Of a DNA stretch of 64,000 bases, positions 29,226 to 64,000 are shown piece by piece (within the stretch, counting starts at the first letter, position 1; the number at the start of each line of letters is the position of its first letter). Position numbers and translations under genes: made by a program. The notes beneath the pieces are model-generated. The model saw only the letters and a list, made by a program, of their open reading frames with translations. It was not told the origin of the DNA and did no database searches. The stretch comes from a virus, in IMG/VR virus record IMGVR_UViG_3300045988_152007, positions 60,475 through 124,474 of that record; one strand, given 5' to 3'.

Positions 29226-30290
29226 TTGATAAAATTAGATTATACTCTTGAAACTCCTGAAGAACGAAATGAATTAGTAAAAAAAATTTTAGAGGAAAAT
29301 CCAAATCCTAATGAAAAGTATTTAGAAATCCTCGCAGATTATTTAATTCTATGTATGGAGAAACAAGAAAAAAAAGAAAAGAAAATATTAACTGATAATA
29401 GATTAATGACAGTTAATAAACGTGAAACTTCTTTTGAAGGACTTGTTTCCCAGTTAGAGAATGGTGAAGATGGTATATATAATTTAATTAATAGTGATAA
29501 AAATATGATATTTTAGCCAAAAGTTACAATTACAAAAAAAGATTTAGAAGAAATTCCTAGCTTAAAACAATTAAAAGACGCTATTACAACTTGGGAAGCA
29601 AAAATGAAAGTAGTAAGTGGTAAAGATGCTTTCACTATAAAAAAGGCATTAATAGAAATGCGCAAAGACCAATATATTATTAAAAATGCTTATCGAAAAC
29701 CAATAGTACCAGTAAAGCTTACACGATCTAAGTATAAAATTAAATTAGATGAAGACGTAAAAGTATTTGATGATGATGGATATCCAATTCCAGAAGGAAT
29801 CTCATTGATGAATCCTGAAATTTGCTCTTGTATCTTATGTAATTATTCTCGATTAAAAGAAGATAGTTGGGATCGTTTTGAAGATGATACTTGGTATCTT
29901 ATTTATGATTTTGAAAATATTTGCGATGAAGCCTTGGCTGATTATCCTATGTTAATGCGCATTGTAGAATGTAAAATTGATGGATTACAAAATATAGAGA
30001 TTCAAAAAATTTTACAAGAAGAATTTAATATTACTCACAGCTTAGAATATATATCAAGTTTATTCCGCAATAAAATACCAAAGCTTATTGCTGATAAAGC
30101 TGTTGATAAATATTTAGAATGGTATTATACAACTCAAGAAAAAGGTAAGTATAAAAAATGCAGTAGATGTGGGCAAATTAAATTGGCTCACAATAAATAT
30201 TTTTCCTATAATAAAACAAGTAAAGATGGATTTTATAGTATATGCAAAAAATGCCGAAATAGTTCTCGTAAAGAAAAAATGAAATCCTAA
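29226..30290 (+). CDS. first late-operon protein (354 aa) with C-terminal zinc ribbon; single in-frame TAG at codon 97
   Basis: TTG start 6 nt after GGAGGT. ORF-track pieces 29169..29516 and 29604..30290 are in one frame and joined across the TAG at 29514-29516. C-terminus CSRCG...CKKC. Confidence 0.5.
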
Positions 30291-30308
30291 AGAAAGGAGA
30301 AATATTGA

Positions 30309-31523
30309 TTGTCCAGCGAAGGTAAACAATATTACTGTGAAAAATGTAATAAAACTATGGATGGAACTTAGTTTTATACATCTAATAATTTAGATAAATA
30401 TCCTAATGATGGTAAATTACCAAAATGTAAAAAATGTATAACAATGCATGTAGATAATTGGAATCCGGATACTTATCTATGGATATTGCAAGAATGTGAT
30501 GTTCCTTACATTCCTGATTAGTGGAATTAGTTAATGGGTAAATTTGCGAAGGATAGAGCGAAAGTCACTGGAATGACAATATTAGGTCGCTATCTCTCTG
30601 CAATGAAATTAAATCAATGGAAAGATTATAGATGGAAAGATAGTCAATTCTTGCAAGACTTACAAAATAAAAAAATAGAAGAAACAATGAAGCAATAGGG
30701 ATATGATGTTCAAGATATTACTACGGCTATTCAACGTGCTTCATTTGCTTTGCCATCAGAAGAATTAAAAGAGCCGCCTCCTCCTGCCCCTCCTCCCCTA
30801 GATTTTGGAAATTCTGCAGAAGATTATTTTAAAGATAAATTAGATTTTGAGGTTCCTGATTTGGGCGCGGAGCTAACAGACGAAGATAAACGATACCTTT
30901 ATTTAAAATGGGGAAAAGGTTATAGCCCTGATGAATGGGTACGCTTAGAGCAATTATTTAATGAAATGATGTAGTCTTACGATATTTAGTCAGCAGGCCA
31001 TATTGATACATTAAAACTTGCCTGTAAGACATCATTAAAATCTAATTAGTTATTAGATATAGGTGATGTAGACGGCGCTCAAAAGATGATTAAAATGTAT
31101 GATTCTTTAATGAAATCAGGCAAATTTACTGCCGCATAGAATAAAGAAGAGTCTGGCGATTTCATTGATTCTGTTGGTGAATTAATAGAAATGTGTGAGA
31201 AACAAGGTTATATCGAAAGATATTACATTGATACTCCAAATGATAAAGTAGATTTTACAATTAAAGATATGCAAAAATATACACGCACTTTAATTGAACG
31301 AGAAACTAATCTTGGCAATATGATTGATTAGGCATTAAAACAAAACGCTAAAGAAGATGAATAGGCTAAAGAAAACGTCGAAGATACAATTGTTGATGAT
31401 GTTGATATGTCTATTGAAGACATTGAAAAAACTTTAGAAGATAAAGATATTGAAGACTTTAGTGAATTTTTAGATAATGAAACAGAGTTAGATATAGATG
31501 CTTTCTCTGATAGGGAAGATTAA
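30309..31523 (+). CDS. putative DNA-packaging protein (terminase small subunit candidate), TAG-recoded
   Basis: TTG start after AAAGGAGA. N-terminal zinc ribbon YYCEKCNKTM...CKKCITMH and acidic C-terminus. Frame verified through about 10 TAG to TAA at 31521-31523, which overlaps the ATG of the next gene. Confidence 0.4.
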
Positions 31524-33274
31524 TGGCGTTACAAGATTTACTTGACCTATCTACAAGTAGGAAAAAAATAGGTCTTTCTGAAGAACGTATTAATGCCGTA
31601 ATGCCAGTCATTCGTAAATATACTGCCTTTTGGCGCGAATATCCAGATTTATTTGTTGATTTTTTAGTACGAGGAACACGTACAGAATAGAAAGAAGGAG
31701 AATTTAAATTTTTCTTCTATTAGCGTGTTTTTTTAAGATGTGTAATGCGCTATCAGTACGTTTATGCAGTTTTCCCTCGTGCCTATTCTAAATCATTCTT
31801 ATCAGTTATGGCATTAATGGTTAGATGTATTCTTTATCCTGGTGTTCATTTATTTGTTACTTCGGGTGGTAAGGAACAAGGCGCGAGTATTCTACATGAT
31901 AAAGTTAATGAAATTTGTGATTTAATACCAAGTTTTAAACGCGAAATTGATTGGGGCCGAGGTAAGAGCCAAGAGAGTAAAGATAAAGTACGTTATGTAT
32001 TTAAGAATGGTTCTGTCCTTGATAATTTAGCTGCGAGAGAAAGTACTCGTGGTCAGCGTCGTCATGGTGGTCTAATGGAAGAATGTGTAGGTATTGATGA
32101 TTAGATTTTACGCGAAGTCATTATACCAGTTATGGCTATTCCTCGTAGAGCTAAGGATGGTACAACTCATGAAGAAGAAGCGGTAAATAAATCATAGATT
32201 TATATTACTACTGCTGGCTATAAAAATACTTATCCTTATGATAGATTAATTGGTTTATTAGTTCGTATGATTACATAGCCTGATAGATGTATGGTATTAG
32301 GTGGAACTTGGCGAACTCCTGTTGCTGTTGGATTACAACAGAAAACATTTATTACTGACCAAAAAAATGAAGGAACTTATAATGAAGCTTCTTTCGAACG
32401 TGAATATGAATCAATTTGGTCTGGTACTGTTGAAGACGCTTTCTTTAATGCAGAAATATTTAATAGAAATAGAATACTGAATTAGCCTGAATACGAAGCT
32501 TCTGGCCGTTCAAGTAAATTATCTTATTATATATTAAGTGTTGACGTAGGCCGTAAAGGATGCGATACTGTTGTTTGTGTATTTAAAGTAACGCCGCAAC
32601 CGCATGGTGAGCCAATTAAAAGTTTAGTTAATATTTATACTATGAATGATACACACTTTGAAGATTAGGCTATTAAACTTAAAAAATTATATTATAAATA
32701 TAAAGCTCGCAGAATTGTAATAGATGCTAATGGACTTGGTGTTGGTTTAGTAGATTTTATGGTTAAGCCATAGATTAATCCTGAAACTTCTGAAGTAATT
32801 CCTGATTTTGGAGTTTATGGTGGAACTCAGGATGATGCAGTTCAAGAATATAAAAAATATAAAACTAATAGTACAGAATTAGATGTTTTATATTTAATGA
32901 AAGCTAATGCACCAATTAATACTGAAGCCCATAGTATTACTTAGTCAGTATTAAATTCTGGTAAGATTAAATTTTTAATTGATGAACGAACTGCTAAATA
33001 GAAATTATTAACTACTAAAGTGGGCTAGAATATGACCACAGAAGCGCGATCTGATTATTTAAGACCATTCAGTTTAACTACTTCATTGCGTGAAGAGATT
33101 ATGAATCTGCGTGAAGAAAATGAAGGTTTAAATATAATTTTAAAACAAGCTAATAAAAGTATTAAAAAAGATAAATTCTCTGCATTAGAGTATGGATTAT
33201 ATTATATAAAAAAAGTAGAAGAAGATAAAAAGAAGAAAAAATTCCGGGCTGCTGATTGGATGTTTATGAATTAA
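31523..33274 (+). CDS. terminase large subunit, TAG-recoded
   Basis: ORF-track fragments 31745, 32291 and 33032 are all in frame with ATG 31523. Motifs GGLMEECVGIDD, ITTAGYKNT, and RNaseH-like nuclease ILSVDVGRKGCDTVVCVF. Confidence 0.65.
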
Positions 33275-33362
33275 GCCGGGCAACTCTTATTATTCTTTTA
33301 AATTAATTTTTAAAAGAATAATAAGAGGAATTTATTTGTAGATAAGAAAGGAGACTTAATAT

Positions 33363-33719
33363 ATGGATGCCAGTCGTGCGGAGATTAAGATTAGAGAAAT
33401 CTTAGAGGAAGCCGGCCTGAATTTTAAGATGGAATATATATTTCCAGATTTAAAAACACATAATGGTCGTCCTTTACGTTTTGATTTTGTCATATTTGAT
33501 GATGATAATAATATTGATTTTTTAATTGAATATCAAGGGAAATAGCATTATGAAGCTAGTAATAAATTTGGCGGAAAACGTGGATTATATCAATAGCAAT
33601 ATAATGATAATCAAAAACGTAGATTCTGTGCTTTACATGATTTACATTTAATAGAAATTCCTTATACAGAAGAAAATTTAATTTCTTATGATTATATAAT
33701 GCGAAAAGCTGGATATTAA
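33363..33719 (+). CDS. small PD-(D/E)XK-type (DUF559/Vsr-like) nuclease, TAG-recoded
   Basis: RFDFVIFDDDNNIDFLIEYQGK(TAG)HY resembles the IEYDGxxH motif. Two in-frame TAG. Confidence 0.45.
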
Positions 33720-33736
33720 TTGAAAGAAGGTGAAGT

Positions 33737-35422
33737 ATGGAATTAGAAAAGGAAGAATTAACCAGAAATGAATAGATACATAAAAAAGGTTTTGACATAA
33801 CTGGAGGAGTACGTGAGTATTCTGCCGTTGGCCCAAATGAGTATAAGAAGATTAAAGTCGGGGTTAAGACATTAGATGATGCTGTCTTAAATCTTGGATC
33901 TTTTAGATGGGACACTTACGGTCGCCGTAGTGAAAAATATAGCCGTGAACGTATTTATACAAAACCTATGGTTATGGATGCTTTAATTCGTAATGATATT
34001 CAAGAACTGCGAAGAATATCACGTTTCTTTTTTAGAGTAAGTGGTATTTATCAAAGAGTATGTAATTATTTTGCAAATATGTATCGTTATGATTGGGCTA
34101 TTGCTATTTAGTCTAATAATACTGATGGTTCTGCTGTTAAAGATATTAATGAAACAAAAGCAGTAAAAGATTTCTGGCGAATTTTAAATTATTTAGATAA
34201 TTCTTATATTAAGAAAATTTGTGGCGATATGGCTCTTGAAGTTATCAAATGTGGAGCTTATTATGCCTATATTGTTCCCTCAAGTACTGGCTTAATTTTA
34301 TAGCAACTTCCTATTGAGTATTGCCGTTCAAGATATTCAGTAGGTAATTTACCTGCTATTGAATTTGATATGAGATACTTTGATACTTTTGTGGATACTA
34401 ATTACCGTAATAGAGTATTAAAATTATTCCCTGATGAATTTACAATAGGTTATCGTCTCTATAAAGCTGGTAAACTTTTACCTGATGTAGCTGGTGATAA
34501 TACTGGTAGTTGGTATTTGTTAGATCCACAAAGCACTATTAAGTTTGCTCTAAATGGTACTAATGATATTCCATTATTTGTAAATGCTATTCCTGCGATT
34601 TTAGATTTGGATGCTGCACAAGATTTGGACCGCCGCAAACAAATGCAGAAATTGTTAAAAATTTTAGTTTAGAAATTACCGCTTGATAAAAATGGTGATT
34701 TGATTTTTGATATTGATGAAGCTCGTGATATCCATAATAATGCTGTTGAAATGCTTCGTAGAGCAGTAGGTGTTGATGTATTAACTACTTTTGCTGATGT
34801 AGATGCTATTGATACTTCTGACAAAAATACTTCTGCCACTACAGATGAATTAGAGCGTGTTGAACGAACTGTATATAATGCATTTGGCGTTTCACGCAAT
34901 TTATTTAATACAGATGGTAATATCGCCTTAGAAAAGTCTATCTTAGATGATGAATCTACCATGCGTAATTTAATTTTGCAATTCAACATATTTTTTGATA
35001 GAATATTATCAGTCCTGAATGTTTAGAAAAAATATAATTATAAATTCTATATGTTAGAAACTACATAGTATAATTATAAAGATTTATCTAAAATGTATAA
35101 AGAGCAAACTTAGATTGGTTTCTCTAAAATGTTACCTTAGATTGCTCTTGGACAATCATAGAGTTTTATTCTTAATACAGCTCATTTTGAAAACGAAGTT
35201 TTACATTTAAGCGAAGTTATGATACCTCCTCTTATGAGTTCTACATTAAATGGTGAAGATATTTTGGGTAAAAAAGATTAGAATGGTTCTAACACTTCTC
35301 AAAATAAAACAAGTGGAAATGCCACTGTGAAAACAGAAACTAAAGAGGGTGGCCGACCAGAAAAAGCTAACGATGAAAAGAGCGAAAAAACAATTGCTAA
35401 TCGTCAAGCTGCTGGTAAATAA
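33737..35422 (+). CDS. portal protein, TAG-recoded
   Basis: 561 codons. Fragments 34370 and 34700 in frame. Position immediately after TerL. Confidence 0.6.
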
Positions 35423-35434: not shown

Positions 35435-37000
35435 GTGAGACATACAAGTGTTAAGTTAGATACTCCTGTTGAGTTTATTAATATCACTAAAATCAATCCT
35501 TTAATTTCTAAGTGTTAGATTAAGGTCTGCTATGTTAGTGATAAACCAAATCGCAATAGAAGTATTATAACAAAAGAAGTTGCTAAAGATTTAGCATAGA
35601 GTTTACCAGGTAGCCCTATTGTTGGTTATTACAATGAAGCTAATGGAGATTATGAAGAACATAACCGTGTAATTGATATTTCCAATGGTAAATTTGATGT
35701 AAAAGATACCACTGTTCCTTATGGTTTTGTAGATTTAGGGGCAAAAGTTTGGTTTTAGAAATTCTTAGATGATGGAAAAAACGAGCATGAATATTTAATG
35801 ACTGAAGGCTATATCTGGACAGATATCTATCCAGAAAGTAAGCGCATTATTGAAAAAGGCAATAATCAATCTATGGAATTAGATGATGAAAAAATTAATG
35901 CGTATTGGTCGAAAGATAAGAATGGAATGCCCGAATTTTTTATTATAAATGAAGCAATAATTAAGAAACTTTGTATTCTTGGAGAAGATTGTGAACCTTG
36001 CTTCGAAGGAGCTAATATTACTGCACCTACGATGCATTTCTCATTTAGTGATAAATTTAATGAGCAATTATTCTCTATGATGAAAGATTTAAAAGAATTA
36101 TTAGAAGGTAAAGGAGGAACAAAAGTGTTCACAAGATATAGTGTGGAGATTGGTGATTCCATTTGGACTTCTCTTTATTCTTACATTAAGGGCTTCGGAG
36201 CAGGTAATGCAATGATTGAAGAAGTTTGCGAAGACAATGGTAATTTATTTGCTATTGTCAAGGAAGATGATAAGTTCGTTCGTTTAGATTTTTCTATGGA
36301 GAATGATACTTTCACTCCTGGCGAAGTTTCTGAATTAACTGATTATTCTGTTTCTGATAATCCTCAATTCGATCCTGAAAAAGTCGCAGAATTTGCGAAG
36401 AAAAAAAAGGACGAAAAAGATAAAGACAATAAAGAGAATAATGATAATAATAAGGAAGATCCTTCTAAAGACCAGCCAAAAGATGGTGAAAAGAAGGACA
36501 CTCCCGAAAATAAACCAACTGATACTTCTGATGAAGAAGAAGAACCAACTGAGGATGACGAAGAGAAAAAAAAGAAAAAGAAAGCTAAGTACTCTTTGGA
36601 AGATGTAGTTGAATATGGTTTATTAAAAGATGAGTATGCTGCACTTGAAACTAAATATAATGAATTAGTTGAAAAGAAAACACAGCTCGAACAAGAACTT
36701 GCTTCTTTAACTCAGTTCAAAACTGAGGCTGAAAGAGAAAAGAAGCAAGAAATGATTAATAGTTTCTATATGTTATCTGATGATGATAAGAAAGATGTTG
36801 TTGCTAATATTGATACATATTCATTAGATGATATTGAAGCAAAGCTTTCTATTATCTGTGTTCGCAATAAGGTCAATTTCGATACCAATGAAAAGAAAGA
36901 AAATGACCCACTTACATATAATATTAATAATGATGTAAATGACGATAGCATTCCTGCTTGGATTAAGGCAGTATAGGATGTTGCGAAAACTATGGAATAA
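35435..37000 (+). CDS. scaffolding/assembly protein candidate, TAG-recoded
   Basis: GTG after AAGGAGG. Acidic/K-rich coiled-coil C-terminus (EEEEPTEDDEEKKKKKK...LEQELASL). Fragment 35798..36976 in frame. Confidence 0.45.
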
Positions 37001-37024: not shown

Positions 37025-37801
37025 ATGCTTTTAAAAGATATGCTTAAAGACCTAAGCGGCGTATCTGCTGTTAAGGGCGGCTACGTTGAATATGGCTATG
37101 GTCAGGTTGAGCCTAATCATTTAAGTGCTCAGCGCACTGGTCAGATTTACGCTCAATTACCTGCTAACAAAAATATCCAGCTTCTTGAAAATGGCCAGTT
37201 TGTTAAGTATGACTATGCTGCTGGTGACCTTGGTGAAGTTGATTTCACTGGCAAGGGCGAATGGATGTTAGTTTATAATGAAATTAAACTTTATCGTGAG
37301 GAACAAGCTGATTGCGAATTTGCTATGCGCAAAGACGATTATCAGGCTCGTTATTACAGCCCCTATGATGGCAAGCAGGAAATTGGTACACGTCAGGCTC
37401 GCTATTTAAACGGCAAGGATGCCGAAGGTAATACTTCTATGACTATTACAGATAGTCAGGGTGTACAACATACTTATGAGTATGATGATGTTACTGCTGG
37501 TCCTGATATTCGTGAACTCTTCTATGAAGAAGATCCTTTACATTTTGATGGTCCTTATGAGGCTCGTAGAATGCCTGCTGGCACTAATATGGTTCCTCGT
37601 GTTTTCAAGACCAATGTTGGTGATATTTTTACGACTAATACTATTGCCGAAGCTACTCTTGCAGTTGGCGATGTTTTAAGTCCTCGTGCTGCTGATGGTA
37701 TGCTTTCTAAATCTGGTGATGGCTCTATCCAATGGTAGGTTGTCAAGGTTTATGAAATGCCTGATCATCAGAAGGGCGTTAAGATTATGCGAATCGCGTA
37801 A
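37025..37801 (+). CDS. abundant head protein (decoration/minor capsid candidate); TAG-free for 237 codons, then TAG at 37736 and a 20-codon extension
   Basis: Clean ORF 37025..37738. In-frame continuation to TAA at 37799-37801 was verified. Confidence 0.5.
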
Positions 37802-37818: not shown

Positions 37819-38955
37819 ATGTTAGATAGAAAAAATCTTGTTCAATTAATGAAGACTGTCGCTAAGGCTGATCCTTCTACTCCTACTGCTTACAGCTTTA
37901 ATGGCGAAAGCCTTTCTTATGATGCTCTTAATGAAACTCTCCGCAGAGAATTAAATGAACTTGCTGGAACTTATTCTTTATATCGTGATAATAAGAACCT
38001 TATTTTCTCAATGATTGAGGAAACTATTGATGAAGTTCTTCCTAAGAAAGTTGAAGAGCAATATAATCAGTTTGCTGAAGTTAAGACGTTTAAACAGGGT
38101 GACAAGCCTATTTTCCGTAGAAAGTTCAGCAACAATACTCGTGCAAAGCAATTTATCACTCGTGTCGGCCTAGCTGGTATCTATGAAGTATTCAAGCTTG
38201 GTAAGACTGAAGAAAGTTTTGAAGTCCGTACAAGCGCTATCGGCGGAGCTACTCAAATTGGATTTGAGGAATTCCTTGATGGCCGTGTCGATTTTGGTGT
38301 TGTCACTCAGATCGTCATGGAAGGTATGGATGAACTTATCTATAAAGAAATTGCCGGTGCTTTAAAGGCTTCTGTTAACCAGTTACCTCCTGCTAACCGT
38401 TTAGTTGCTAATGGTTTTGATGAACCCGGCTTTGATAAGTTACTTATGATTGCTTCTGCTTATGGTACTCCTACTATTTATTGCACTTATGAATTTGCTG
38501 TTCGTATGATTCCGAAGGATGCTTGGCGTTATACTGAAGCTATGAAAAATGAGCTTTGGAATACTGGCCGTCTTGCTTCCTATAAGGGCTATAAAGTAGT
38601 TATTCTTGAACAGGGCTTTGAAGATGCTACTAATGAAAAGAAAGTCATTGACCCAGGTTATGCTTGGATTATTCCTACTGGTGCTGATAGTAAGCCTGTA
38701 AAGGTTGCTATGGAAGGCAATACCATTGTTGATGAATATACCAATTATGATCGTAGCCGTGAAATTCAGGTTTATAAGAAAGTCGGCGTTATTGCTATGT
38801 TAGCTAATAACATCTGCTGCTATTGTGATACTGAACTTCTTGGTGATATGAAGACATGGCATCTTGATGGCGTAACTGGTAAGGTCCGTGACTATGCTGG
38901 TCAGATTACTGGTTCTCATGATACTATTGATGGCGGTAATGAAGATAAGCCGTAA
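37819..38955 (+). CDS. major capsid protein candidate; contains no TAG codon
   Basis: 378-aa uninterrupted ORF with higher GC than surrounding genes. Followed by a strong terminator. Confidence 0.5.
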   Translation: MLDRKNLVQLMKTVAKADPSTPTAYSFNGESLSYDALNETLRRELNELAGTYSLYRDNKNLIFSMIEETIDEVLPKKVEEQYNQFAEVKTFKQGDKPIFRRKFSNNTRAKQFITRVGLAGIYEVFKLGKTEESFEVRTSAIGGATQIGFEEFLDGRVDFGVVTQIVMEGMDELIYKEIAGALKASVNQLPPANRLVANGFDEPGFDKLLMIASAYGTPTIYCTYEFAVRMIPKDAWRYTEAMKNELWNTGRLASYKGYKVVILEQGFEDATNEKKVIDPGYAWIIPTGADSKPVKVAMEGNTIVDEYTNYDRSREIQVYKKVGVIAMLANNICCYCDTELLGDMKTWHLDGVTGKVRDYAGQITGSHDTIDGGNEDKP

Positions 38956-39055: not shown

Positions 39056-39622
39056 ATGAGTAAAAAAATTTTAATAGTTACTAATAGAAGTGCTGGAATG
39101 GTTGTTTATACCATTCCTGAAGAAGGTATCCGCAGAGAATTTACACCTGGAGAAACTAAGAAAATTCCTTTTGAGGAATTAGAGAAACTTGCCTATCTTA
39201 GCGGAGGCCGCACTTTGATGGAAAACTTCTTAAAGATTGTGGATACTGAAACTACAGAAGAATTAGGTATTCATACAGAACCTGAATATTATTTAGACGA
39301 CGCTGGAGTTATTAAGCTTCTTACCGAAGGGACTCTTGATGAATTCCTTGACTGTCTTGATTTTGCTCCTATTGGAGTTATTGATATGATTAAGAGTTAT
39401 GCTGTATCTCTTCCTATGAGTGATTACAATAAACGTAAAGCTCTTAAGGATAAAACTGGATTTGACCTTGATCGAGCCTTAGCTAATAAGGAAGCTGAAG
39501 CTGCAGATGATGAACAAATTACTCCAAAAGCTCCTGAACGTAGAGTAAAGACCGAAACTAAGCTCACAACGCCTCCTGGTCGTAGAACTGCTCCTCGGTA
39601 TAACGTTGTAAAAGAAGGTTAA
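39056..39622 (+). CDS. structural protein; contains no TAG codon
   Basis: ATG after AAAAGGAGA. 188 aa. Confidence 0.45.
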   Translation: MSKKILIVTNRSAGMVVYTIPEEGIRREFTPGETKKIPFEELEKLAYLSGGRTLMENFLKIVDTETTEELGIHTEPEYYLDDAGVIKLLTEGTLDEFLDCLDFAPIGVIDMIKSYAVSLPMSDYNKRKALKDKTGFDLDRALANKEAEAADDEQITPKAPERRVKTETKLTTPPGRRTAPRYNVVKEG

Positions 39623-39644: not shown

Positions 39645-40256
39645 ATGACATATTTTTATAAGATTTATGAACGCTTTTTAGGTAAAGTAACAGATGATAT
39701 GTATTTAGAACTTACTCCTCATGATACATTTTTAGATTTACGTCAATTACTTGTTGATAGTATTCCTGGATTTGAATTTCCGCGTAAACGATTAGATTAT
39801 GTTTTAGTTGATGAAGATGCTCCTGATTTTATAAAAGGGGAAATTGATGGCGGAAATATTGATATACCATTAGGCGGAGATTTATCTGAAGAAGTAGCTG
39901 GCAGTAACATTGATATAGATAATGCTTTTTAGGAGATATTTTCTGAAGAAAATACCTCCTATTTTAATGCCGATTTGGATGATGAAGAAATTAATATCTT
40001 GGCTTTGATTATGGTTGAAGCTTGGGTAGAACGTCAATTGGCATCTATTGAAGTAACAAGAATGAAATATTCTGGCACAGATTTTAAATTTACTTCATAG
40101 GCAAATCATATGTAGAAATTGTTATCATTGAGAACAGAAGTAAGACGTTAGGCCTTTCATATGCAGAGATTATATAAGCGTCGTAAAACTGATGATAATG
40201 GATATATTAAATCTAACTGGTCTGTTCTAAGGGAGGTAAGTGCCCTTGATGACTAA
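39645..40256 (+). CDS. head-tail connector/adaptor candidate; TAG-free N-terminal 95 codons then recoded
   Basis: INILALIMVEAWVERQLASIEV looks gp6-like. TAA at 40254-40256 verified in frame. Confidence 0.4.
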
Positions 40257-40542
40257 ATATAATTTTAATATAGATAATGATTTAATTAATACTAATATTA
40301 ATAGATTAACTAATTAGATATGGAAATTAATTCCTATGCGCGAAAATGAAGAAGATTGGTTATCTTAGTTAAATACTGTAATTATTGAATTAACTGGTCT
40401 TGGGGAAATTTTTAACGATAGTTAGTATTTAATTCTTTTAAGTAAATTAGAAGGATTAAAAAATATTGAAATTGAATTTCCTATTTATAGAAAGACAGTG
40501 TTTGAAGCTATTACTTTATTAAGGGGGCTTCACATTGAATAA
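40249..40542 (+). CDS. small structural protein, TAG-recoded
   Basis: 97 codons ending in TAA at 40540-40542. Confidence 0.35.
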
Positions 40543-41551: not shown

Positions 41552-42142
41552 ATGAAAATTGATAATGTAAAAAATCCAGAGTCAGCATTTTTGGCCCAAG
41601 AGAAAGATATGAGAATTATAGTTGATCGTATGGCCGCGAATCAACGTTTGCGTAAATTACTTTATTATACTACTCCTGATGCGTTAAAAAAACCAGAAGT
41701 AAGTGATTAGAATTTCGCAAAAATGTTTGGCAAGAATATAAGGAATTTACCAAAATTATATATAGATAAAGATGTTTTAAATTATATCGTTATTAGTTTT
41801 GATAATTTTGCTCCTAATGGAGATAATCCTGAATTCAGAGATAATACTATTGAATTTGATATTATTTGTCATTATGATTAGTGGCAGTTAGCTGATTCAT
41901 TTTAGTTAAGACCTTATAGAATTGCTGCTGAACTTGATAGTATGTTAGATAAAAAACATTTAACTGGAATTGGGCAACTTAATTTCGTCGGAGCATAGCA
42001 AATTATATTAACTGATGAATTTGCTGGACTTTGTTTATTATATGATACAATACACGGAGGAGAAGATAAAAAATATATGCCAAATCCTGCTGATGAACAA
42101 ATGTTTATCGAGGATTATTTTAAAATGCCTAAAATGAACTAA
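41552..42142 (+). CDS. structural protein, TAG-recoded
   Basis: 196 codons. TAATG overlap with the next gene. Confidence 0.4.
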
Positions 42143-46287: not shown

Positions 46288-46326
46288 TATATATAGAAAT
46301 TTATAATGAGAGAAAGGAGCTATTTT

Positions 46327-55300: not shown

Positions 55301-55629
55301 ATAATGGTAAAATTATTAAAGTCCATCCTAAAGAATTAATTCTTAACCAAAAAGATACTTCTAATATACTTCGTGCAGTTGATATTGTTCGTAATATGAA
55401 TGATTGGGTTGATAAACAAGTGCAATCAATGATTAATTTTGGATAGATAAAGTTGGGTAATTTAATTGATAAAACTACTCCACCTGTTTATGAAACTTAG
55501 CCAATTAAGCAAGAAGTTACTATCCAAGCAGACTTCCCAGGAGTTACTGATCATTATGAAATTGAAGAAGCATTGTCTAATCTTAGTAATAATGCGGCTC
55601 AATATATAAGTGCAAATAAATCTAAATGA
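46327..55629 (+). CDS. tail tape measure protein (about 3100 aa), TAG-recoded
   Basis: The N-terminal region matches the TP901-type TMP domain (MTKLGAYTASSTDEISEGI.KFASVANTIGLSYEYATSALATLTAKTRESANTVGNSLKTLFARI). Six ORF-track fragments are in the same frame. I verified 46327-50100 codon by codon: dozens of TAG and no TAA/TGA. TGA at 55627-55629. Confidence 0.6.
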
Positions 55630-55675: not shown

Positions 55676-58600
55676 ATGGCTTATAATAGAAAAGAAGAAT
55701 ATTTAGCTACTATAAAAAAGCCAAAAGAAATAACAGATACCTTATTAGAGACTATAGATTATATAGCACGGGCACGTGATGCTGAATTATCATTTGATAA
55801 AACTATAATTGCTGAAGTTATAAGTCTAAACGACGCCAGTACTGGAGAGTATTTTGTTGAATATCAAAAAGGCAAATTCCGTGCTTATGCCCCAGCTACA
55901 TTAACTTATGTATATTCTAAAGGAACTAATGTATATGTAAAAGTACCAGGCGGTGATTTTACTTAGAAAAAAACTATTGAAGGCAAAGCATCTGCTACTT
56001 CTTATACAGAAGAAGAATATAGCGATTTATCTTAGCAAGTAGTTGAAATAAGTGAAATATATAGCAATGGTAATGAATATGGTATCTTAGCTTATGCCCC
56101 AGAACCTAAAAAGGAAGAAGAAGAAACTCCAAAAGATGATAAAGATAATTCATCAAATGATACAAAAGAAGGTACTGCAACTGATACTTAGGCTGAAGAT
56201 AGTAAAGAACCGATAGAAGAGGAAGAAGATAAAAGTAAATATTATGAATAGGTAATTTATGAAAATGATAATCTCACTGAAGATGTAATTTTTACCAGTT
56301 TATTAACTACTTATCCTCGTATTATGATTTAGGCCGATTTTAGAACATAGTTTTATGGAACAATGATGGCTGGTAATTATGGATTAAAAATTGATTTTGT
56401 AGAAAAAGATACAGGTATTGTTTTTAGTCGTAGATTAGATATTATAAATTTCTCTGGTAGTATTTACGATTATGAAGTATTTTCACCATAGTATGTAATT
56501 TATGATTTAACTGGAATTAATTTAATTGGCATAAAAAAAATTACATTTTTTCAAGAAAGATTTTTAAGATATGATACTGTTTTTAACGGTAAAGGTGAGA
56601 TAACTGCGGTTTATAATAAAGAACCTAATCTTTTTGTCAAAAATATAAAACTTAGTTTTGTTGATGTCCAAGATTCTACTAAAGATTTATATTATGTAGG
56701 TATTAGCGCGCCATAGGGTTTATCATTAATTCAAGATACCGATAAAATAAAATTAATAGGCGTTTTTTATTATGCTAATAAAAATATATTAGAAGAAAAA
56801 ACTTGCAAATGTTATTGGTATAAATAGAATCCGGCAGTTCTATCTGGTAGTGAAAAATATGATTAGATAGGCGGCCCTGGGTGGGAATGTATTAATGATA
56901 GTTCTAATGTAAGATTTAATGAACTAACTATTTCGGGCAAAGATGTATATCAATAGATGCGATATAAATTAGTGGTAGTATATAATTCTAATGTTACTTT
57001 ATATAAAGATGTTAGAGTAGTTAAATATTATAATGAACGATTTACTATAATTCCGCAATTTATTAGTGAAAATGAAGTTAAATTATCTATTGTAGATTCA
57101 TTAGAAACTATTAATGAAGCTGATTGGTATGTTGATTTGATGGATGGATCATATTTACCTTTATCTACTGGAGTTAGTTAGATTGATGTAAGTTAGTTTT
57201 TAGAATATGGTAATGTAATATTTTATAGTGTTAGTAAATTAGATACTGGTGATTATGTACCTTGCGAATATAAATTAATTACTTATAAACAAGAATCGCC
57301 CGTGCGAGTAGTATTTAGTGGAACAGATACTTTTTAGTATGATGTTAATGGTAGTATTTCTTTAGATTAGGCTAATAAAGAAATAATTATTACTCCAACT
57401 ATTAGCGTAGATAAGGAAAATATAGGAGTTAAAAGTGTTACTTGGTATTCACCTGATGGAGGAGAACTTTTAGAATATCCTACTACTAAAATTACTAATT
57501 CAATGCTTTCAAAGCTTTGGATAGATAAAACTAATAATGCTTTACATTATTATATTAAACCTAAATATGTAGATACTTATACTAATAATACCTTATCATT
57601 AAAAGTAATAACATTAGCTGATAAAGAATTTAAGTTTAATAAAAGTATTGTTTTTATTAAACCAGGTGACTCAACAGTTAGTGGTTTAGATTATCAATTA
57701 ATTATTAAAGATTGTAATGTTGATGGCAGTGAACTCGATACTAAACCTATTAATAAAAAAAGTGGGTCTGGTTATGAACCGATTTATCTTATGCCAGAAG
57801 TAAGATATAATGGTAATAAAATAATAAATGGTTCTGCTTATTAGGATGCTGTTGGTAATGTCACAGATAAATATAAAATAACTGTTGAAGCAGATCCTAT
57901 CAATTTAGATTGTGAAAAAGTAAATAAAGAAAAAAATGTATTTAAAATTTCAAATCCAGTTGAAGATTGTAAGGGTTAGTATTTTATAAAATTTAAAGTA
58001 ACTATAGGGTTAGAGAATAAAGCTATTACAAATTAGACTTTATATTATTACAAGCCTATAATGGTTAGTACTAATTTTGTAGTTAATAGCATTGGTAATA
58101 TTAATATACCTTCTAAAATTACTTATAATGAAAAGGGAACTCCTTCTTTAATAAATAAATAGATTTCTTTTATGTATAAATATGATGGTAAAAAATTTAT
58201 TGATTTATTATAGGTTACTAATCCAGTGTCTCTTACTGATTATATAATTATAGTTAATTCTACTAATTCTGATAATGTAAAATAGCAATACCTTAGACCA
58301 CAAGAAAATTATCCAGGTGCTTATTTTGCTAAATCCACTGACCAAGTAAAAACAGTTCCTATGGGTGCATTATAGATTTTTTTGCCAGATAATAAAGGTA
58401 GTTTATTTTATCCAATAGTAATGCTTAATAATAAAGATATTACTATTATAACAGATGAAGATAATGATGGTACTAATATACCCGTACTTGATGAAGATAA
58501 TGTAGAATCTGAAAAGCCTCTTGATCCAGGGTTTTCTCATGGTAGGCCTTGGGCGCGAGATGAAGGTAAAACTTATGTAGGTTCTTTGTGGGAAAATAAA

Positions 58601-58972
58601 CGTAGAAAATATACCTTGCCTATCGAAGATCCAGGAAAAGATTTAGAAATTTAGACATTAAGTTTAGAAGCTGAAGAAGAACCAGCGGAAGAATTAGATA
58701 GTTCAGGGTTTGTTTCAGGATTATATCAATATGATATAGATGGTATTCCTACCAATATTTTGCGTTCTGATGGAGTTGTAAAATTAGCAGGAGATGCTTT
58801 ATGTTTTAATGTTGATGGTTCTATTTAGTTAAAAGAAGAAAGTGTGACTAATATTTTAACAGTAGCTAAATTGCTAAATGAGATAGCTACAAATGCTGAT
58901 TTAAAACAATAGTTATCTGATTATATTGCTCCTAAAAATATAAAATTACGTGATTGGTATATTGAAGAATGA
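55676..58972 (+). CDS. large tail protein (distal tail / tail-associated), TAG-recoded
   Basis: Four fragments in frame. 1098 codons. TGA at 58970-58972. Followed by a terminator. Confidence 0.45.
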
Positions 58973-59078: not shown

Positions 59079-62000
59079 ATGGCAGCGTCCACAATAAATA
59101 TAAATAGAGTATATCCGCCTATTGTAGATAGTTCAATACCAGCATTTTTAGCAACTGCGGCCTCTATTAATATAAATTTTTCTTTACCTAAATCATTAAA
59201 TTATGAGGATGTAAAGAATATCTCAATTAAATTTGTATAGCAATCCAATAATAAAAGTATAATTAATACTGATAAATATTGGGATGGTATTATTTATATG
59301 GAAAAGCCAACTACCTCTACTGATAATGAAATATATACAGTTACTGTAAATAGTTCAGATATTAAATTAGGAGATACAATAGGTTGGGTTTCTAATACTT
59401 ATTATAAAATTTAGATACGTTTTGGCTATGGGAAAATAGATTATACAGATAAAATTTCATTTTTTAAATGGAAAAAATCTTAGACTGTAGCTGAAGCTTT
59501 TTCAGAATGGTCCAATATTATAATTACTAAAGCAATTGATGATCCAATTGTAGAAATATTAAATAATAAAGATACTTCTTCATTAGATGTAGGATTTATT
59601 TTAATATCAAGTAATAATATAGAAGTTAGCCGTTTCCCTAAATTTGAGGGAGGATATCAAAGCGATACTGAACCATTGGATAAATATCGTTTTAGATTAT
59701 ATGAAGGCAGTTTTAATTCAAAGAATCCTCCAAGTTCTGAGCCATATTTATAGAGTGATTGGCTATAGTATAATGGTGGAGGGAAAGATAAATATAGTGC
59801 TTTAGTCTCTTATAGTTTTAATAGACAATTAGATTAGACTGGAATAAAAATGTATTCATTGATTTTTGATGTTATTACAATGAATAATTATCAAAAATCT
59901 TCTGAATATTATAATTTTACTATTACTGAAAATTATTTAAAATAGTTATAGACTTTAGTATTTACAGTAAAAGATAATACTGAATCTACCATATTATTAA
60001 ATAAAATAGCCGGAGCAAATCAAGTTGCTTTTTAGATGTATAAGGAATATTTTGGATTAAAAGGATAGGCTCCTAAATTTATTAAAGGTTATTATGATGA
60101 TGCAGATGGGTATAATGCGGGAGATATAATTTATCAAACTGGTAATATTAATGAAGATAATATAGAAACTCATGTATTAAGTAAAATTACTAGAATAAAA
60201 GCAATTGAAGATTTTAGTCATAATTTGCGAGCTGATGAAAATGGCAGCTTAGAAATTTATATTAAAAATAATCCTTATGAAGTAAAAGAAAAAATAACTA
60301 TTACTACTATTACTGGTGAAAAAGTAGAACGTGAAATAGATGTAGAAAAATATCAATCTCTTGATGGTACTTTTATTTTATCAAGAGCTTGTGAAACTGA
60401 TAATTATACTCAATGGAAAGATATAGCTCAATTTGATTGGTATAATGAAACTAATTATGATGATAAGTTAACTTTATTATATGAAGATTTTACTGTTGAA
60501 AGTGGAGTTAAATATAAATATGCTTTATAGAAATAGAATGCTGTAGGATTAAGAAGTGCCCCTAAATATGAAAGTGATGATATTGATTCATCACCAGCGC
60601 ATTGGTCTAATTTTTAGTATAGTTATATTTATAATAATGGTATTCAAGTTCGTTTAGATTTTGATTGCAAAATGAATAGTTATAAGCATACTACTTTATT
60701 CCAAAAGCAAGATAGCTTGAATTCTAAATATCCGATTATTTTGCGTAATGGATTGGCACATTATGCAGAATTTTAGTTAGGTGCAAAAATTTCTTTATTA
60801 AGTGATATTGATTCTTCTTTTTTAATGCGTAATGATGCTAAAGGTGGTTATTATCATAGTTGGTATGGAGATATAGTTATTTCAAAAGATAAATATATTA
60901 AAACTTTTGAACGTGATTTATAGAATCCATATAACAATGATTATAATATAAGACAATATAATATTCAAAATGCTTCTACATTTAATACTAATCCAACTAA
61001 TGATAATATATATATGGAACGTATATATAGACATTGGGTAGAAGAATTTTTAAATGATGGTGGTTATAAATTATTTAAGTCACCAACTGAAGGAAATCAT
61101 ATAGTTACTTTAACTAATGTTACTTGGACTCCTCAAGCTTCTTTATATCGTATGATTTATGATTTTAATTCAACAGCTTATGAAGTAGCTGATTGTACCC
61201 CAGAAAATATTATCTTATATTAGATAAATCCATTAACTACTTTGTCTAATAATTCTAAATTAGCAATTTAGAATGCTAGTACAAAAACTAAAACAGTTAT
61301 TGGGCAAGTAGCTCGAACATTTAATGGAAAATATGCACAGGAAATTACTAATAATAAATTATCTATAGTTGATAATAATAAATTTAATCTTACTTATGAT
61401 AACATTTGTAACGCAATAAAACTTCAAGAAGAACAAGAAATAAGTGAAGATAGAAAATATCGAGTAAGAAGAATAAAAGCGATTTGGGTAGAATAGTATC
61501 CTAAACTAAATCTTAAAAATAAAATAGAATATTTAAAAAATAAAACTAGTTCAACTATGATAGGTCAGTTAACTAATGCAGTTGAATTATTAAGATGTGA
61601 ATAGCTTTTATAGGAATATGAAAAAAATTAGACTAATATTATTACTATGATAATAAATGGTAAAGAAATTTCTATGATGCCCAGTCGTATTTATCATTTG
61701 GATGATGCCATTATTGATAGTATGTATTTAAAATTTACTCGCCCTATTTTAATTAATTATATAGTTGATTTAGAGGAAGAAGATTTCTTAGAAATGGTGA
61801 CTGTTATTAAGCGTGAATTTGCACAATGGGGATAGCTTGGTGGAGTATTTACTGATACTCAAGATATTCTTGATAATTATTAGTTCTTTAGAAATGATGA
61901 TACTTAGATAGTTAATGAAAAATATAATTATGGATTATATTCTACATTAAATTTAATGGATATAATAAAAGAAAAAGTACATACTTCTATTTTAAATAAT

Positions 62001-62507
62001 TATAGTGATGAAAAACTTGAATCTACTTTTGATTTATTGTATAATGATATAAATGAATTTTTAAATAGAGTTAAAGATGATACAGAGTCTATTGAAGAAT
62101 TATTAATAACTGGTACATAGTTATTAGAAAATTATAGACCTTTGTCTGGATTAACTTTAAATAAATAGACTGATGCTTGGATGAATGGTTCAGATCAATT
62201 AATTATATATAATTTTACTGGTATTGATAGTATCGAAATTGAAGCAGATGCTAATACAGATTTAGTTTTTTATAGAGAGTATGATCTTGATGCAACTACT
62301 GGTAATTATCATATTAGTTCTCCTGGCACTCATGTACGTATTGGACCTACTAATAAATTAATTTTAAATCCTTTGAAAGATGAGATTGTTAAAGTAGAAT
62401 TTGTTAGACCTACTTATGCAATAGTTAATTATAAATCTGTTTTATCTTTGGAAGTTAAAAAAGGTAAGCAGAAAGAAAAAGATGAATCATAGGAGAAAAC
62501 GGAATGA
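59079..62507 (+). CDS. large tail fibre/baseplate protein, TAG-recoded
   Basis: Four fragments in frame. 1142 codons. TGA stop overlaps the next ATG (ATGA). Confidence 0.45.
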
Positions 62508-64000
62508 GAGAATATCTAAAAGATAGTGAGTTTTTAACTGCATTAGATGAAATGCGTATAAAAAAACATTATATCAAACTTACCATTTTATCTTTTATTG
62601 ATGAAAAACCCATACGAGAAGTATAGGGTATAGCAACGGCAGGCTCTATTACAGTTAATGGGTCTGCCGCCTTGCGCCGCACGATTAGTCTAACAATTAG
62701 CGGTGTAGAAAATGAGAATGACATTAATAATATTGAAAATATTATTTCAATTAATAAAAAAGTAAAAGTAGAGGTAGGACTTGAGAATCCATTTGAAGAT
62801 TATAAAACCTATGGAGATATTATTTGGTTTCCTCTTGGAACATTTGTAATTAATCAAGCTACTTCTTCTACTACAGCTTCTGCTGCAAATATTTCTATTT
62901 CAGGTAAGGATAAAATGTGTATGCTTGATGGTACTTGTGGAGGTACATTACCTTCAGCAGTTACCTTTCATGAGACACAATATGAAGATGAAAATGGAGA
63001 TATTACAATTGAGCAAGTGCCTATATTTACGGTTATTAAAGAATGTGTAACACATTTTGGCAAAGAACCAGAGTAGAATGTTATAATTAATGATGTAGAT
63101 ATGACAGCTAAACTTAGTACAAAATATATGGGCCAAAATCCTATATGGTTTTCTAAAGATTATAAAAGTTTTGTAATTAGTGAAAATGCTCCTGAAGATG
63201 AAAATTTTTTATAGCATAAATTTATTTATGGACAAGACGTAGGATATCAAGAAACAGATTTTACTTATCCAGGAGAATTAGTATTTTCTGCGGGAGATAC
63301 AGTAACTTCTGTCCTTGATAAAATTATTGAATCTTTAGGAAATTATGAATATTTTTATGATTTAGATGGTCATTTTGTATTTTAGTAGAAAAAGAATTAT
63401 TTAAATTATTATTATACTCCTATTACAGAAATAAATGATACTTATTATATAAAAGCTTTTTCAGATAGTAAATATTATTATACTTTTGCAAATGCTAAAG
63501 ATGCATTATCTTATTATAATAGTCCTAAATATGAAAATATAAAAAATGATTTTATTGTATGGGGCGATAAAACTAATAGTAATGGAGTTACTAAAACTAT
63601 ATAGTATCATTTAGCTATAGATGAAAAACCTCAAATTGATTTAGCTAATCAATATATGTGGGATGTAGTTCGAGGTAATGGTGACCATGCTTTTTATTTA
63701 TTTGAGTATAAAAAAAGCAATTATAATTAGACACCTGATAAAAAAGCTTTAGAAATTATTTATTCTGTTAATCATGAAGAAATGGCGGATGAAGTAATTG
63801 AATCTAACATTAAAGAAGATATAATTGAAAATATTTTAAAGAATTATTCTTTTTACACTGGCGATTAGTTTATTTTATATTATAAAATAATATTTTTAAA
63901 TTAGATAAGATATTATAAAATTACTTTATTAGATGGAGAAATTATAGGATTTCAATATCTTGAAGATTTAACTGATATTATTGACTTTACTCATTTAGCT
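62504..64000 (+). CDS. tail protein, TAG-recoded (3' partial; runs off the window)
   Basis: ATG 62504. Fragment 62672..63076 is in frame. Confidence 0.4.

What the first reader, a model, noticed from the sequence alone, without database searches (positions are those of the whole stretch)
29226..64000. TAG is a sense codon: the whole late structural operon is written in a recoded genetic code
Every plus-strand late gene appears in the ORF track as several short fragments. In each gene the fragments are in the same frame and are separated only by TAG, never by TAA or TGA. For TerL, fragments 31745, 32291 and 33032 are all congruent with ATG 31523. The six tape-measure fragments are congruent with ATG 46327, as are the four fragments of each large tail gene. 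I followed the tape-measure frame codon by codon from 46327 to about 50100 and found dozens of in-frame TAG and no TAA/TGA. Reading TAG as an amino acid restores recognisable protein signatures: the TP901-type TMP domain, GIY-YIG, HNH, the TerL nuclease motif, and a portal-sized ORF. All genes terminate with TAA or TGA. TAG density is about 1 per 18 codons in recoded genes. Stop-codon recoding of late genes is known in crAss-like, Lak and related phage clades (TAG to Gln is the most common reassignment). The promoters here are Firmicutes-style sigma-A and AbrB homologs are present, which points to a low-GC Gram-positive host. I cannot determine the encoded amino acid from this window alone.
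Basis: partly seen in the sequence, partly recalled or inferred. Interest (0 to 1): 0.9.

Follow-up and report, generated by a model that had tools for sequence, protein, structure and literature searches.

The report
Gut phage reads TAG as glutamine
This is part of a common ~190-kb human-gut phage related to Bacillus phage SPbeta, and it reads the stop codon TAG as glutamine in its virion genes; the effect is real and clear-cut, but it belongs to a kind already described (genetic code 15 phages).

Summary
If only TAA and TGA are stops, plus-strand 28977-64000 becomes 21 tiled genes. These include TerL, portal, an SPbeta-type capsid and tail-tube set, and a 3,108-codon tape measure. Together they hold 249 in-frame TAG and no in-frame TAA or TGA. 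The off-frames of the same genes hold 2,283 TAA/TGA.

TAG encodes glutamine, on two independent tests. In standard-code homologues (Geobacillus E3, Enterococcus VRE9_4, Alicyclobacillus KKP_3916), Gln lies opposite TAG as often as opposite CAA/CAG (20% vs 18.5%; background 5.6%). In 77 related metagenomic loci, TAG interchanges with CAA and CAG.

A tRNA with a CUA anticodon lies in a tRNA cluster of a closely related contig. I could not reach it on the window's own contig.

- TAG density is 1 per 45 codons overall and 1 per 29 in the tape measure, not 1 per 18.
- The major capsid gene and g9 have no TAG.
- Recoding extends beyond the late operon, to homing endonucleases in the window and replication genes outside it.
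- The minus-strand early block (1-28900) has no in-frame TAG in 5,554 codons.

The public protein database already translates this contig with TAG=Gln. A related group (phAss-1) is published. Verdict: new member of a known kind, modest interest.

The parts
29086..29197 (.). Divergent promoter pair between the TAG-free early block (minus strand) and the recoded late operon (plus strand)
   Evidence: minus strand 29114-29086 is TTGACA-17-TATAAT (12/12). Plus strand 29169-29197 is TTGACT-17-TATAAT with a TG extension (11/12). These are consensus matches only.
29226..30290 (+). g1, sigma-factor-like protein, first gene of the operon; one TAG at 29514
   Evidence: PHROG 5767 'sigma factor', E=1e-46. 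TTG start at 29226 follows a GGAGG site. In relatives the TAG aligns to CAA 43 times, TAG 10 and CAG 3.
30357..31523 (+). g2, YonG-like protein; 10 TAG
   Evidence: PHROG 3314. Pfam YonG_N on the homologue in a 98%-identical strain. TAG count.
31523..33274 (+). g3, large terminase; 11 TAG
   Evidence: PHROG 2. 43-45% identical to the TerL of Geobacillus E3 and Enterococcus VRE9_4. At three TAG sites all three standard-code homologues have Q.
33363..33719 (+). g4, homing endonuclease between TerL and portal; 2 TAG
   Evidence: PHROG 9084 and 559. Both TAG sites align to Q in VRE9_4.
33737..35422 (+). g5, portal; 10 TAG
   Evidence: PHROG 2739, E=1e-74. TAG count.
35435..37000 (+). g6, YonD-like head protein; 4 TAG
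   Evidence: PHROG 3313 aligns across residues 8-509 of the long form. Pfam YonD_N. The database calls a shorter form starting at ATG 35798.
37025..37801 (+). g7, head protein; 1 TAG, mostly CAG for Gln
   Evidence: PHROG 35301. Gln codons are CAG 10, CAA 4, TAG 1.
37819..38955 (+). g8, major capsid protein (YonB family); no TAG
   Evidence: Pfam YonB. PHROG 4088. No TAG here and almost none in 77 relatives.
39056..39622 (+). g9; no TAG
   Evidence: PHROG 30998. TAG count.
39645..40256 (+). g10; 4 TAG
   Evidence: PHROG 3853. TAG count.
40249..40542 (+). g11; 3 TAG, which are its only Gln codons
   Evidence: Homologous to VRE9_4 and KKP_3916 ORFs. Codon counts.
40562..41530 (+). g12; 6 TAG
41552..42142 (+). 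g13, YomW-like; 4 TAG
   Evidence: Pfam YomW. TAG count.
42142..42876 (+). g14, YomV-like; 8 TAG
   Evidence: Pfam YomV_2nd. TAG count.
42956..44041 (+). g15, tail tube (YomU); 2 TAG
   Evidence: Pfam YomU_Tube. TAG count.
44252..45571 (+). g16; 12 TAG
45685..46212 (+). g17; 2 TAG
46306..55629 (+). g18, tape measure protein, 3,107 aa; 108 TAG, ends in TGA
   Evidence: Aligns to the annotated tape measure proteins of VRE9_4 and E3. Pfam PhageMin_Tail and NLPC_P60 on the homologue. TAG count.
55676..58972 (+). g19, large tail protein; 25 TAG, ends in TGA
59079..62507 (+). g20, large tail protein; 27 TAG, ends in TGA
62504..64000 (+). g21, tail protein running off the window (1,199 aa in relative L084); 9 TAG so far
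   Evidence: In L084 the operon continues for about 8.9 kb and ends where the strand switches.
9470..9991 (+). DUF6291 gene in the early region; 9 TAG
   Evidence: Database gene call and Pfam. TAG count.
10329..10940 (+). GIY-YIG homing endonuclease in the early region; 10 TAG
   Evidence: Pfam GIY-YIG, weak. TAG count.
11899..12519 (-). HNH homing endonuclease, the only clearly recoded minus-strand gene in 1-28900; 4 TAG
   Evidence: Coding score is positive in all TAG-separated segments. Pfam HNH_3.
12745..13107 (-). Early gene that ends in TAG at the point where its paralogue 15024-15422 ends; readthrough would add 41 aa
   Evidence: The paralogue comparison is my reading of the two translations.

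Best explanation
The window comes from a roughly 188-191 kb SPbeta-like tailed phage of the human gut that decodes TAG as glutamine (genetic code 15).

Shown:
- TAG is an in-frame sense codon in the virion operon and in some other genes.
- TAG supplies 45% of the Gln codons in the late operon.
- Only TAA and TGA terminate the late genes.
- The 29-kb minus-strand early block has no in-frame TAG.
- A tRNA with a CUA anticodon is encoded in a tRNA cluster of a closely related contig.

Inferred:
- On infection, the host's standard-code machinery translates the TAG-free early genes.
- The phage then supplies the amber suppressor tRNA, which a host enzyme charges with Gln.
- Only after that can full-length terminase, portal, tail and tape-measure proteins be made, so recoding acts as a translational gate on late functions.
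- Suppression must be nearly complete. With 108 TAG in the tape measure, a 10% yield of full-length protein requires at least 97.9% readthrough per codon.
- The most abundant virion protein (the capsid) avoids TAG altogether.
For: ORF restoration and stop statistics.

Amino acid, test 1 (unbiased, X at TAG in the query, standard-code subjects): Q is opposite TAG in 51 of 250 aligned sites (20.4%). The background is 5.6%, and Q is opposite canonical Q in 18.5% of sites. Gln has the best log-likelihood (-680) against -722 for Lys, the next best.

Amino acid, test 2 (codon level, 77 IMG/VR relatives): in the 60-90% identity band the window's TAG aligns to CAA 35%, TAG 23%, CAG 8% and GAA 8%. This is the same pattern shown by CAA and CAG codons.

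Counting TAG as Gln raises the Gln content of late genes from 2.7% to 4.9%.

The early block has 0 in-frame TAG in 5,554 codons.

tRNA(CUA): L375 3729-3803, found by ARAGORN and by Rfam tRNA at 49 bits, with a cloverleaf fold of -24.8 kcal/mol. The carrying contig is 191,149 bp. It is about 93% identical to L295, whose contig is 98.6% identical to an IMG/VR strain that is 95% identical to the window.

Hundreds of independent assemblies carry near-identical full-length proteins.

Published precedent: PMC10607447, bioRxiv 10.1101/2021.08.26.457843, PMC9523058.
Against: - The suppressor tRNA was not seen on the window's own contig (scaffold_57). The window and 4.4 kb to its left contain no tRNA.
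- The tRNA's sequence does not resemble the phage's tRNA-Gln(UUG). Its closest match among the tRNAs fetched is tRNA-Thr. Its Gln identity therefore rests on the protein alignments and on general features (U1-U72 mismatch, G73, U35).
- Timing of expression is not measured.
- Some replication genes outside the window also carry TAG (14 in a 580-aa protein), so the early/late split is not clean.
- No release-factor gene was found by a GGQ-motif scan, so how RF1 is out-competed is unexplained.
Confidence: 0.88

Rival explanations
1. TAG is a sense codon but encodes an amino acid other than glutamine, for example Lys, pyrrolysine, Ser, Glu, Tyr, Leu or Trp.
For: ARAGORN labels any CUA-anticodon tRNA as 'tRNA-Pyl'. 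Lys is the second most frequent residue opposite TAG. The suppressor tRNA body resembles tRNA-Thr more than tRNA-Gln.
Against: The log-likelihood for Gln exceeds that for Lys by 42 units and all others by more. At the codon level TAG exchanges with CAA and CAG, not with AAA/AAG, TAT/TAC, TGG, TTG or TCG. The sites where all three homologues agree are Q.
Confidence: 0.04
2. The host itself uses a TAG=Gln code and the phage simply matches it, so there is no phage-driven switch.
For: TAG is almost never a terminator anywhere in the window: 2 of 44 early genes and 0 of 20 complete late genes. The host is unidentified.
Against: The 29-kb early block has no in-frame TAG, which would be unexpected if TAG were an ordinary Gln codon for the host. 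A closely related contig carries its own CUA tRNA. One early gene ends in TAG exactly where its paralogue ends. Within the family, TAG use ranges from 0 to 1.76 per 100 codons. All cultured relatives infect standard-code Bacillota. To my knowledge no bacterial lineage with TAG=Gln is known.
Confidence: 0.05
3. The TAG codons mark pseudogenes, a decaying prophage or an assembly artefact, or they are read only by inefficient leaky readthrough.
For: Under code 11 the operon looks like a field of broken genes.
Against: Only TAG interrupts the frames: 249 TAG against 0 TAA/TGA in-frame, while the off-frames hold 2,283 TAA/TGA. The same full-length proteins recur in hundreds of independent assemblies, including a 185-kb contig at 1,215x coverage. 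Leaky readthrough cannot deliver a protein with 108 TAG.
Confidence: 0.01

Closest known systems
Code-15 (TAG to Gln) recoded gut phages described by Borges et al. (bioRxiv 10.1101/2021.08.26.457843) and validated by metaproteomics for crAss-like phages (PMC9523058)
   Same: In-frame TAG is concentrated in structural genes, there is a TAG-poor early module, a phage-borne CUA-anticodon tRNA is present, and code use varies within the clade.
   Different: This phage is not a crAss-like or Lak phage. Its terminase and virion module are SPbeta-like and belong to a siphovirus with a 3,107-aa tape measure. I did not test whether it falls in one of that paper's named clades.
phAss-1 / proposed Phassvirus and the wider group around it (PMC10607447; GenBank OQ749652, NCBI taxon 'Caudoviricetes code 15 clade')
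   Same: Human-gut siphovirus with TAG=Gln in TerL, portal and a tape measure of about 3,150 aa. It carries tRNA-Sup-CTA genes and shares ancestry with Enterococcus phage EF1. That paper notes TAG recoding in divergent 33%-GC relatives (ctUes22, ctxMM9).
   Different: TerL is only about 42% identical. The genome here is about 188-191 kb against 136 kb, and GC is 33% against 44.5%. The tRNA-Sup sequence and its genomic position differ: in phAss-1 it lies next to NrdD, here it lies in a cluster with ROOL RNA.
Standard-code SPbeta-like phages: Bacillus SPbeta, Geobacillus virus E3, Enterococcus phages EF1, H1 and VRE9_4
   Same: Gene order matches VRE9_4: TerL, homing endonuclease, portal, head genes, tube, giant tape measure. 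The Pfam families are named after SPbeta genes: YonG, YonD, YonB, YomW, YomV, YomU.
   Different: Those phages use the standard code. Their Gln codons stand where this phage has TAG.

Membership tests
Genetic code 15 (TAG=Gln) phage | Conserved phage genes are interrupted in frame by TAG only and terminate in TAA or TGA | tested here: met
   249 TAG and 0 TAA/TGA in-frame in 21 genes.
Genetic code 15 (TAG=Gln) phage | TAG positions align with Gln in standard-code homologues | tested here: met
   Q opposite TAG in 20.4% of sites, against 18.5% for true Gln codons. Gln has the best likelihood. TAG exchanges with CAA and CAG in relatives.
Genetic code 15 (TAG=Gln) phage | Phage-encoded tRNA with a CUA anticodon | tested here: inconclusive
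   Present in a closely related contig (L375 3729-3803). Absent from the window and its left flank. The window's own contig could not be read at the homologous place.
Genetic code 15 (TAG=Gln) phage | Gln detected at TAG positions in peptides | not testable with these tools
   Needs metaproteomics.
Stage-dependent recoding (Borges model) | Early genes compatible with the standard code, late and structural genes recoded | tested here: met
   0 TAG in 5,554 early codons against 249 in 11,187 late codons. Exceptions are three mobile or accessory genes in the early region and some replication genes in relatives. Timing itself was not measured.
SPbeta-like virion module | YonB capsid, YomU tube, and YonG, YonD, YomW and YomV proteins in SPbeta order; TerL of the YonF type | tested here: met
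   Precomputed Pfam hits on the locus that carries the identical capsid protein. TerL hits include proteins annotated YonF.
   By tblastn, the nearest TerL hits in the phage collection are phages of Bacillota and unclassified gut phages; the 25 listed rows and the top organism counts show no crAss-like or Lak phage. A giant tape measure and a tube protein indicate a long-tailed siphovirus.
Proposed genus Phassvirus | High nucleotide identity and shared synteny with phAss-1 | tested here: not met
   No megablast match in the phage collection. TerL is 42% identical at the protein level. Membership of the wider group in that paper was not tested by phylogeny.
Pyrrolysine decoding | TAG positions aligned with Lys or Pyl; pyl genes present | tested here: not met
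   Lys likelihood is 42 log units worse than Gln. I did not search specifically for pyl genes.

The most novel reading that the evidence does not exclude
This family may capture a genetic-code change in progress. Within one SPbeta-like lineage, TAG use in the virion genes runs from zero (members at 74.5% and 62% TerL identity) to 1.76 per 100 codons. In the window, CAG is depleted in late genes: CAG is 9% of Gln codons in late genes (50 of 550) against 60% in early genes (78 of 130). This is as if CAG had been converted to TAG by single C-to-T changes everywhere except in the most highly expressed head genes. The first gene of the operon, a sigma-like factor behind a host-type promoter, carries one TAG and usually carries 1-3 TAG in relatives. 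Suppression could therefore gate late transcription as well as late translation. One early gene that ends in TAG would gain a 41-aa tail once suppression starts.
Probability: 0.25. Interest if true: 0.55.

Novelty: new member of a known kind. Interest (0 to 1): 0.3.

Why it matters
Standard-code annotation shreds this phage's virion genes, so it is easily mis-annotated or discarded even though it is abundant in human gut metagenomes. It extends TAG=Gln recoding to a large SPbeta-like siphovirus lineage that has cultured standard-code relatives in Bacillota. That gives a tractable comparison set for two questions: how codon reassignment arises, and how near-complete suppression is achieved (108 TAG in one gene) with no release-factor gene found by a motif scan. 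The phenomenon itself is already established, so the value is incremental.

Tried and rejected
- Pfam scan of ten late proteins with X at TAG found nothing significant. The informative families (YonB and others) came only from the database's precomputed hits.
- Megablast of 8 kb of the operon against 50,697 phage records found no match.
- A homologue search with g21 returned only short contigs for close relatives.
- Walking by exact DNA pattern returned the same fixed stretch twice.
- ARAGORN on 60 relatives within 10 kb either side of TerL found no suppressor. The first tRNA cluster found (L186) also has no CUA anticodon.
- I then walked both ways round the genome of close strains, using chimeric two-protein queries. 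This reached a second tRNA cluster, which does hold the CUA tRNA.
- A weak Rfam tRNA hit (L186 12413-12480, 32.6 bits) could be read as having a UUA anticodon. I do not trust it.
- The ARAGORN call 'tRNA-SeC(tca) with intron' in L375 is, on my reading of the sequence, a class-II tRNA-Leu(UAA) with an intron at the classic site, not an opal suppressor.
- Sequence comparison of the suppressor tRNA with other tRNAs did not reveal its isotype.
- A TerL scan of species-representative genomes found phage contigs binned into MAGs labelled Mollicutes, Acutalibacteraceae, Clostridium, Bacteroidales and Treponema. These labels contradict one another and give no host.
- A GGQ-motif scan for release factors in the window and 347 kb of close-strain loci found nothing. 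This is a crude test.
Full report
**1. Observation**

The window is 33% GC and contains no tRNA gene. Under code 11 the plus strand from 28977 to the end is a scatter of fragments. With only TAA and TGA as stops it becomes 21 tiled ORFs with short gaps, including ORFs of 3,126, 1,105 and 1,143 codons. Counting from plausible starts, these genes hold 249 in-frame TAG in 11,187 codons and no in-frame TAA or TGA. The other two frames of the same genes hold 1,311 TAA, 972 TGA and 524 TAG. At that off-frame rate, a 3,126-codon stretch without TAA or TGA has a probability near 1e-146. Seventeen genes end in TAA and three in TGA; the last runs off the window.

TerL starts at ATG 31523. The tape-measure frame is right. 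Position 29226 is a TTG behind a GGAGG site, directly downstream of a near-consensus promoter.

Its numbers need correction:
- TAG occurs once per 45 codons overall and once per 29 in the tape measure, not once per 18.
- The capsid gene and g9 have no TAG, and g1 and g7 have one each.

**2. What the genes are**

PHROG profiles identify a sigma-factor-like protein (g1), large terminase, a homing endonuclease, portal and several head and tail families. My own Pfam scan found nothing.

The public assembly index holds the identical capsid protein on contigs of about 191 kb that are 98% identical to the window. Its precomputed Pfam hits for that locus are YonG_N, YonD_N, YonB, YomW, YomV_2nd and YomU_Tube. 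The 3,236-aa tape measure there hits PhageMin_Tail and NLPC_P60. This is an SPbeta-type siphovirus virion module.

By tblastn, the closest annotated phages are:
- Geobacillus virus E3 (47% TerL identity);
- Enterococcus phages VRE9_4, H1 and EF1 (45%);
- Alicyclobacillus KKP_3916;
- the human-gut phage phAss-1 (42%);
- more distantly, Bacillus and Lactococcus phages whose terminase is annotated YonF.

Gene order matches VRE9_4 closely.

**3. Which amino acid**

Test 1. I translated the late genes with X at TAG and aligned them by tblastn to three standard-code relatives. Of 250 residues opposite TAG, 51 are Gln (20.4%). The background is 5.6%, and canonical CAA/CAG Gln codons in the same alignments see Gln 18.5% of the time. 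I built a likelihood for each candidate amino acid from the substitution frequencies in these alignments. It puts Gln first (-680), Lys second (-722), and all others lower. Sites where all three homologues agree on Q include three in TerL (query positions 71, 229, 386) and one in the portal (190).

Test 2. A TerL-based scan of IMG/VR returned 77 related loci at 51-100% TerL identity. At the codon level, in the 60-90% identity band, the window's TAG aligns to CAA (35%), TAG (23%), CAG (8%) and GAA (8%). CAA and CAG codons show the same pattern and themselves align to TAG in 10-12% of cases. Tyr, Trp, Leu, Ser, Lys and Glu codons do not exchange with TAG.

Counting TAG as Gln raises the Gln content of late proteins from 2.7% to 4.9%.

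**4. Where recoding stops**

Positions 1-28900 are a block of minus-strand genes. A codon model trained on the late genes picked 44 of them. They contain no in-frame TAG in 5,554 codons and end in TAA (30), TGA (12) or TAG (2).

The exceptions in this region are:
- a DUF6291 gene (9 TAG);
- a GIY-YIG endonuclease (10 TAG);
- an HNH endonuclease (4 TAG).

One early gene (12745-13107) ends in TAG at the point where its paralogue (15024-15422) ends. This suggests TAG still acts as a stop early in infection.

Early genes prefer CAG for Gln (78 CAG, 52 CAA). Late genes have 251 CAA, 50 CAG and 249 TAG. The capsid gene and g7 keep CAG.

In close strains the operon continues about 8.9 kb past the window. 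Minus-strand replication and nucleotide-metabolism genes follow. Some are TAG-free (the Pol III alpha-like protein, GyrA, GyrB) and some are not (14 TAG in a 580-aa protein). These gene names are my reading of the translated sequences, not profile hits.

**5. The suppressor tRNA**

The exact source contig is on record (ENA ERZ28573108, scaffold_57, 188,411 bp), but only 4.4 kb beyond the window could be fetched from it, and that stretch has no tRNA.

I walked both ways round the genome of close strains, using two-protein chimeric queries. One tRNA cluster (L186) has no CUA anticodon.

A second cluster, reached through a DUF2828 protein, contains in order: tRNA-Thr, Pro, Gln(UUG) and Tyr; a ROOL RNA (327 bits); a 75-nt tRNA with anticodon CUA (Rfam 49 bits, clean cloverleaf); an intron-containing class-II tRNA; and tRNA-Gly.

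The carrying contig is 191,149 bp and belongs to the same 93-98% identity cluster as the window. The tRNA has a U1-U72 mismatch, G73 and U35. From memory, these fit GlnRS identity rules. The suppressors of phAss-1 and of L241 also have a mismatched first pair and G73. Its sequence, however, is closest to tRNA-Thr, so isotype cannot be read from similarity.

No release-factor motif was found in the window or in 347 kb of close-strain loci.

**6. Mechanism**

Shown:
- TAG is decoded as an amino acid with the substitution behaviour of Gln.
- The early block avoids TAG.
- A closely related contig encodes a CUA tRNA.

Inferred:
- The host reads the standard code.
- The phage supplies the suppressor.
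- Late proteins are gated on it.

The gate would have to open almost fully. A 10% yield of a protein with 108 TAG needs 97.9% readthrough per codon. This may explain why the capsid gene avoids TAG, and it leaves the fate of RF1 open.

The sigma-like g1 sits behind a host-type promoter and carries one TAG. In relatives that position is usually CAA, but most relatives carry 1-3 TAG elsewhere in the gene.

**7. Comparison and novelty**

TAG=Gln recoding of phage late genes is established (bioRxiv 10.1101/2021.08.26.457843; PMC9523058; PMC11210395).

A related human-gut group was described in 2023. It is phAss-1, with TAG in TerL, portal and a 3,149-aa tape measure, and three tRNA-Sup-CTA genes. 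That paper noted that divergent 33%-GC relatives are also recoded (PMC10607447). NCBI has a taxon 'Caudoviricetes code 15 clade'.

The protein database already holds full-length, Q-containing translations of this very phage.

This is therefore a new, apparently undescribed member of a known kind. It is a 188-191 kb, 33%-GC SPbeta-like lineage that is common in gut metagenomes. Recoding is graded within its family, from 0 to 1.76 TAG per 100 codons.

The host is not identified. MAG bin labels conflict. Cultured relatives and an SLH-domain protein in a close strain point to Bacillota.

Noticed in passing
L375 2271-2854 (close relative, ENA ERZ27271080 k141_206889): A full-length ROOL RNA (Rfam RF03087, 327 bits against a threshold of 99) lies inside the tRNA cluster, between tRNA-Tyr and the CUA-anticodon tRNA.
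   Followed up: no
L186 9871-10680 and 11770-12308; L375 3917-4277; L186 7350-7495: Several phage tRNA genes are interrupted. tRNA-Gln(UUG) has a 735-nt insert carrying an HNH ORF that itself contains 9 TAG. tRNA-Asp has a 464-nt insert. A class-II tRNA has a 273-nt insert at the position typical of tRNA-Leu(UAA) group I introns. A 146-nt tRNA has an anticodon that depends on the splice site.
   Followed up: partly
L186 9092-9167 and 13054-13141: Two odd tRNAs. One has a short variable arm and anticodon UAG, which ARAGORN calls Leu. The other has a long variable arm and anticodon CCA, called Trp. In each case the body type does not match the anticodon.
   Followed up: no
window 12745-13107(-) vs 15024-15422(-); 13200-13610(-) vs 15469-15855(-): A two-gene cassette is duplicated in the early region. 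One copy ends in TAG where its paralogue ends in a normal stop. Readthrough would add 41 residues.
   Followed up: partly
window 1-28900 vs 29226-64000: Gln codon choice flips between modules. Early genes have 78 CAG and 52 CAA. Late genes have 50 CAG, 251 CAA and 249 TAG. The capsid gene and g7 keep CAG.
   Followed up: partly
window 28082-28309(-): An AbrB/MraZ-fold protein next to the divergent promoters has a TAG nine codons before a TAA. It is unclear whether it ends at the TAG or reads through. The database calls the longer form.
   Followed up: partly
window 5574-6944(-), 7127-7402(-); L005 17400-18880 (just left of the window): Early genes include an RNA-ligase-like protein, a chorismate-mutase-domain protein, a SAM synthetase and a T7 Gp5.9-like protein. 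This looks like a host-takeover or anti-defence set.
   Followed up: no
L375 10001-14579 and 18961-20031: A close strain encodes a DUF2828/DUF7788 protein, an 826-aa protein with a major-vault-protein shoulder domain, and a flotillin/Band_7 protein. All lie near the tRNA and ROOL cluster.
   Followed up: no
L168 4390-7519: On my reading of the translations, the anaerobic ribonucleotide reductase gene appears split into two ORFs by an HNH endonuclease gene.
   Followed up: no
L034, L035, L063, L071-L080: Family members at 74.5%, 62% and 51% TerL identity have essentially no in-frame TAG in the same genes, so recoding has been gained or lost within the lineage.
   Followed up: partly
L380-L387: Phage contigs of this family, up to 176 kb, are binned into species-representative MAGs labelled Mollicutes, Treponema, Bacteroidales, Muribaculaceae, Clostridium and Acutalibacteraceae. 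At least some of these look like binning errors. One 'Mollicutes' MAG holds two different phages of the family.
   Followed up: no
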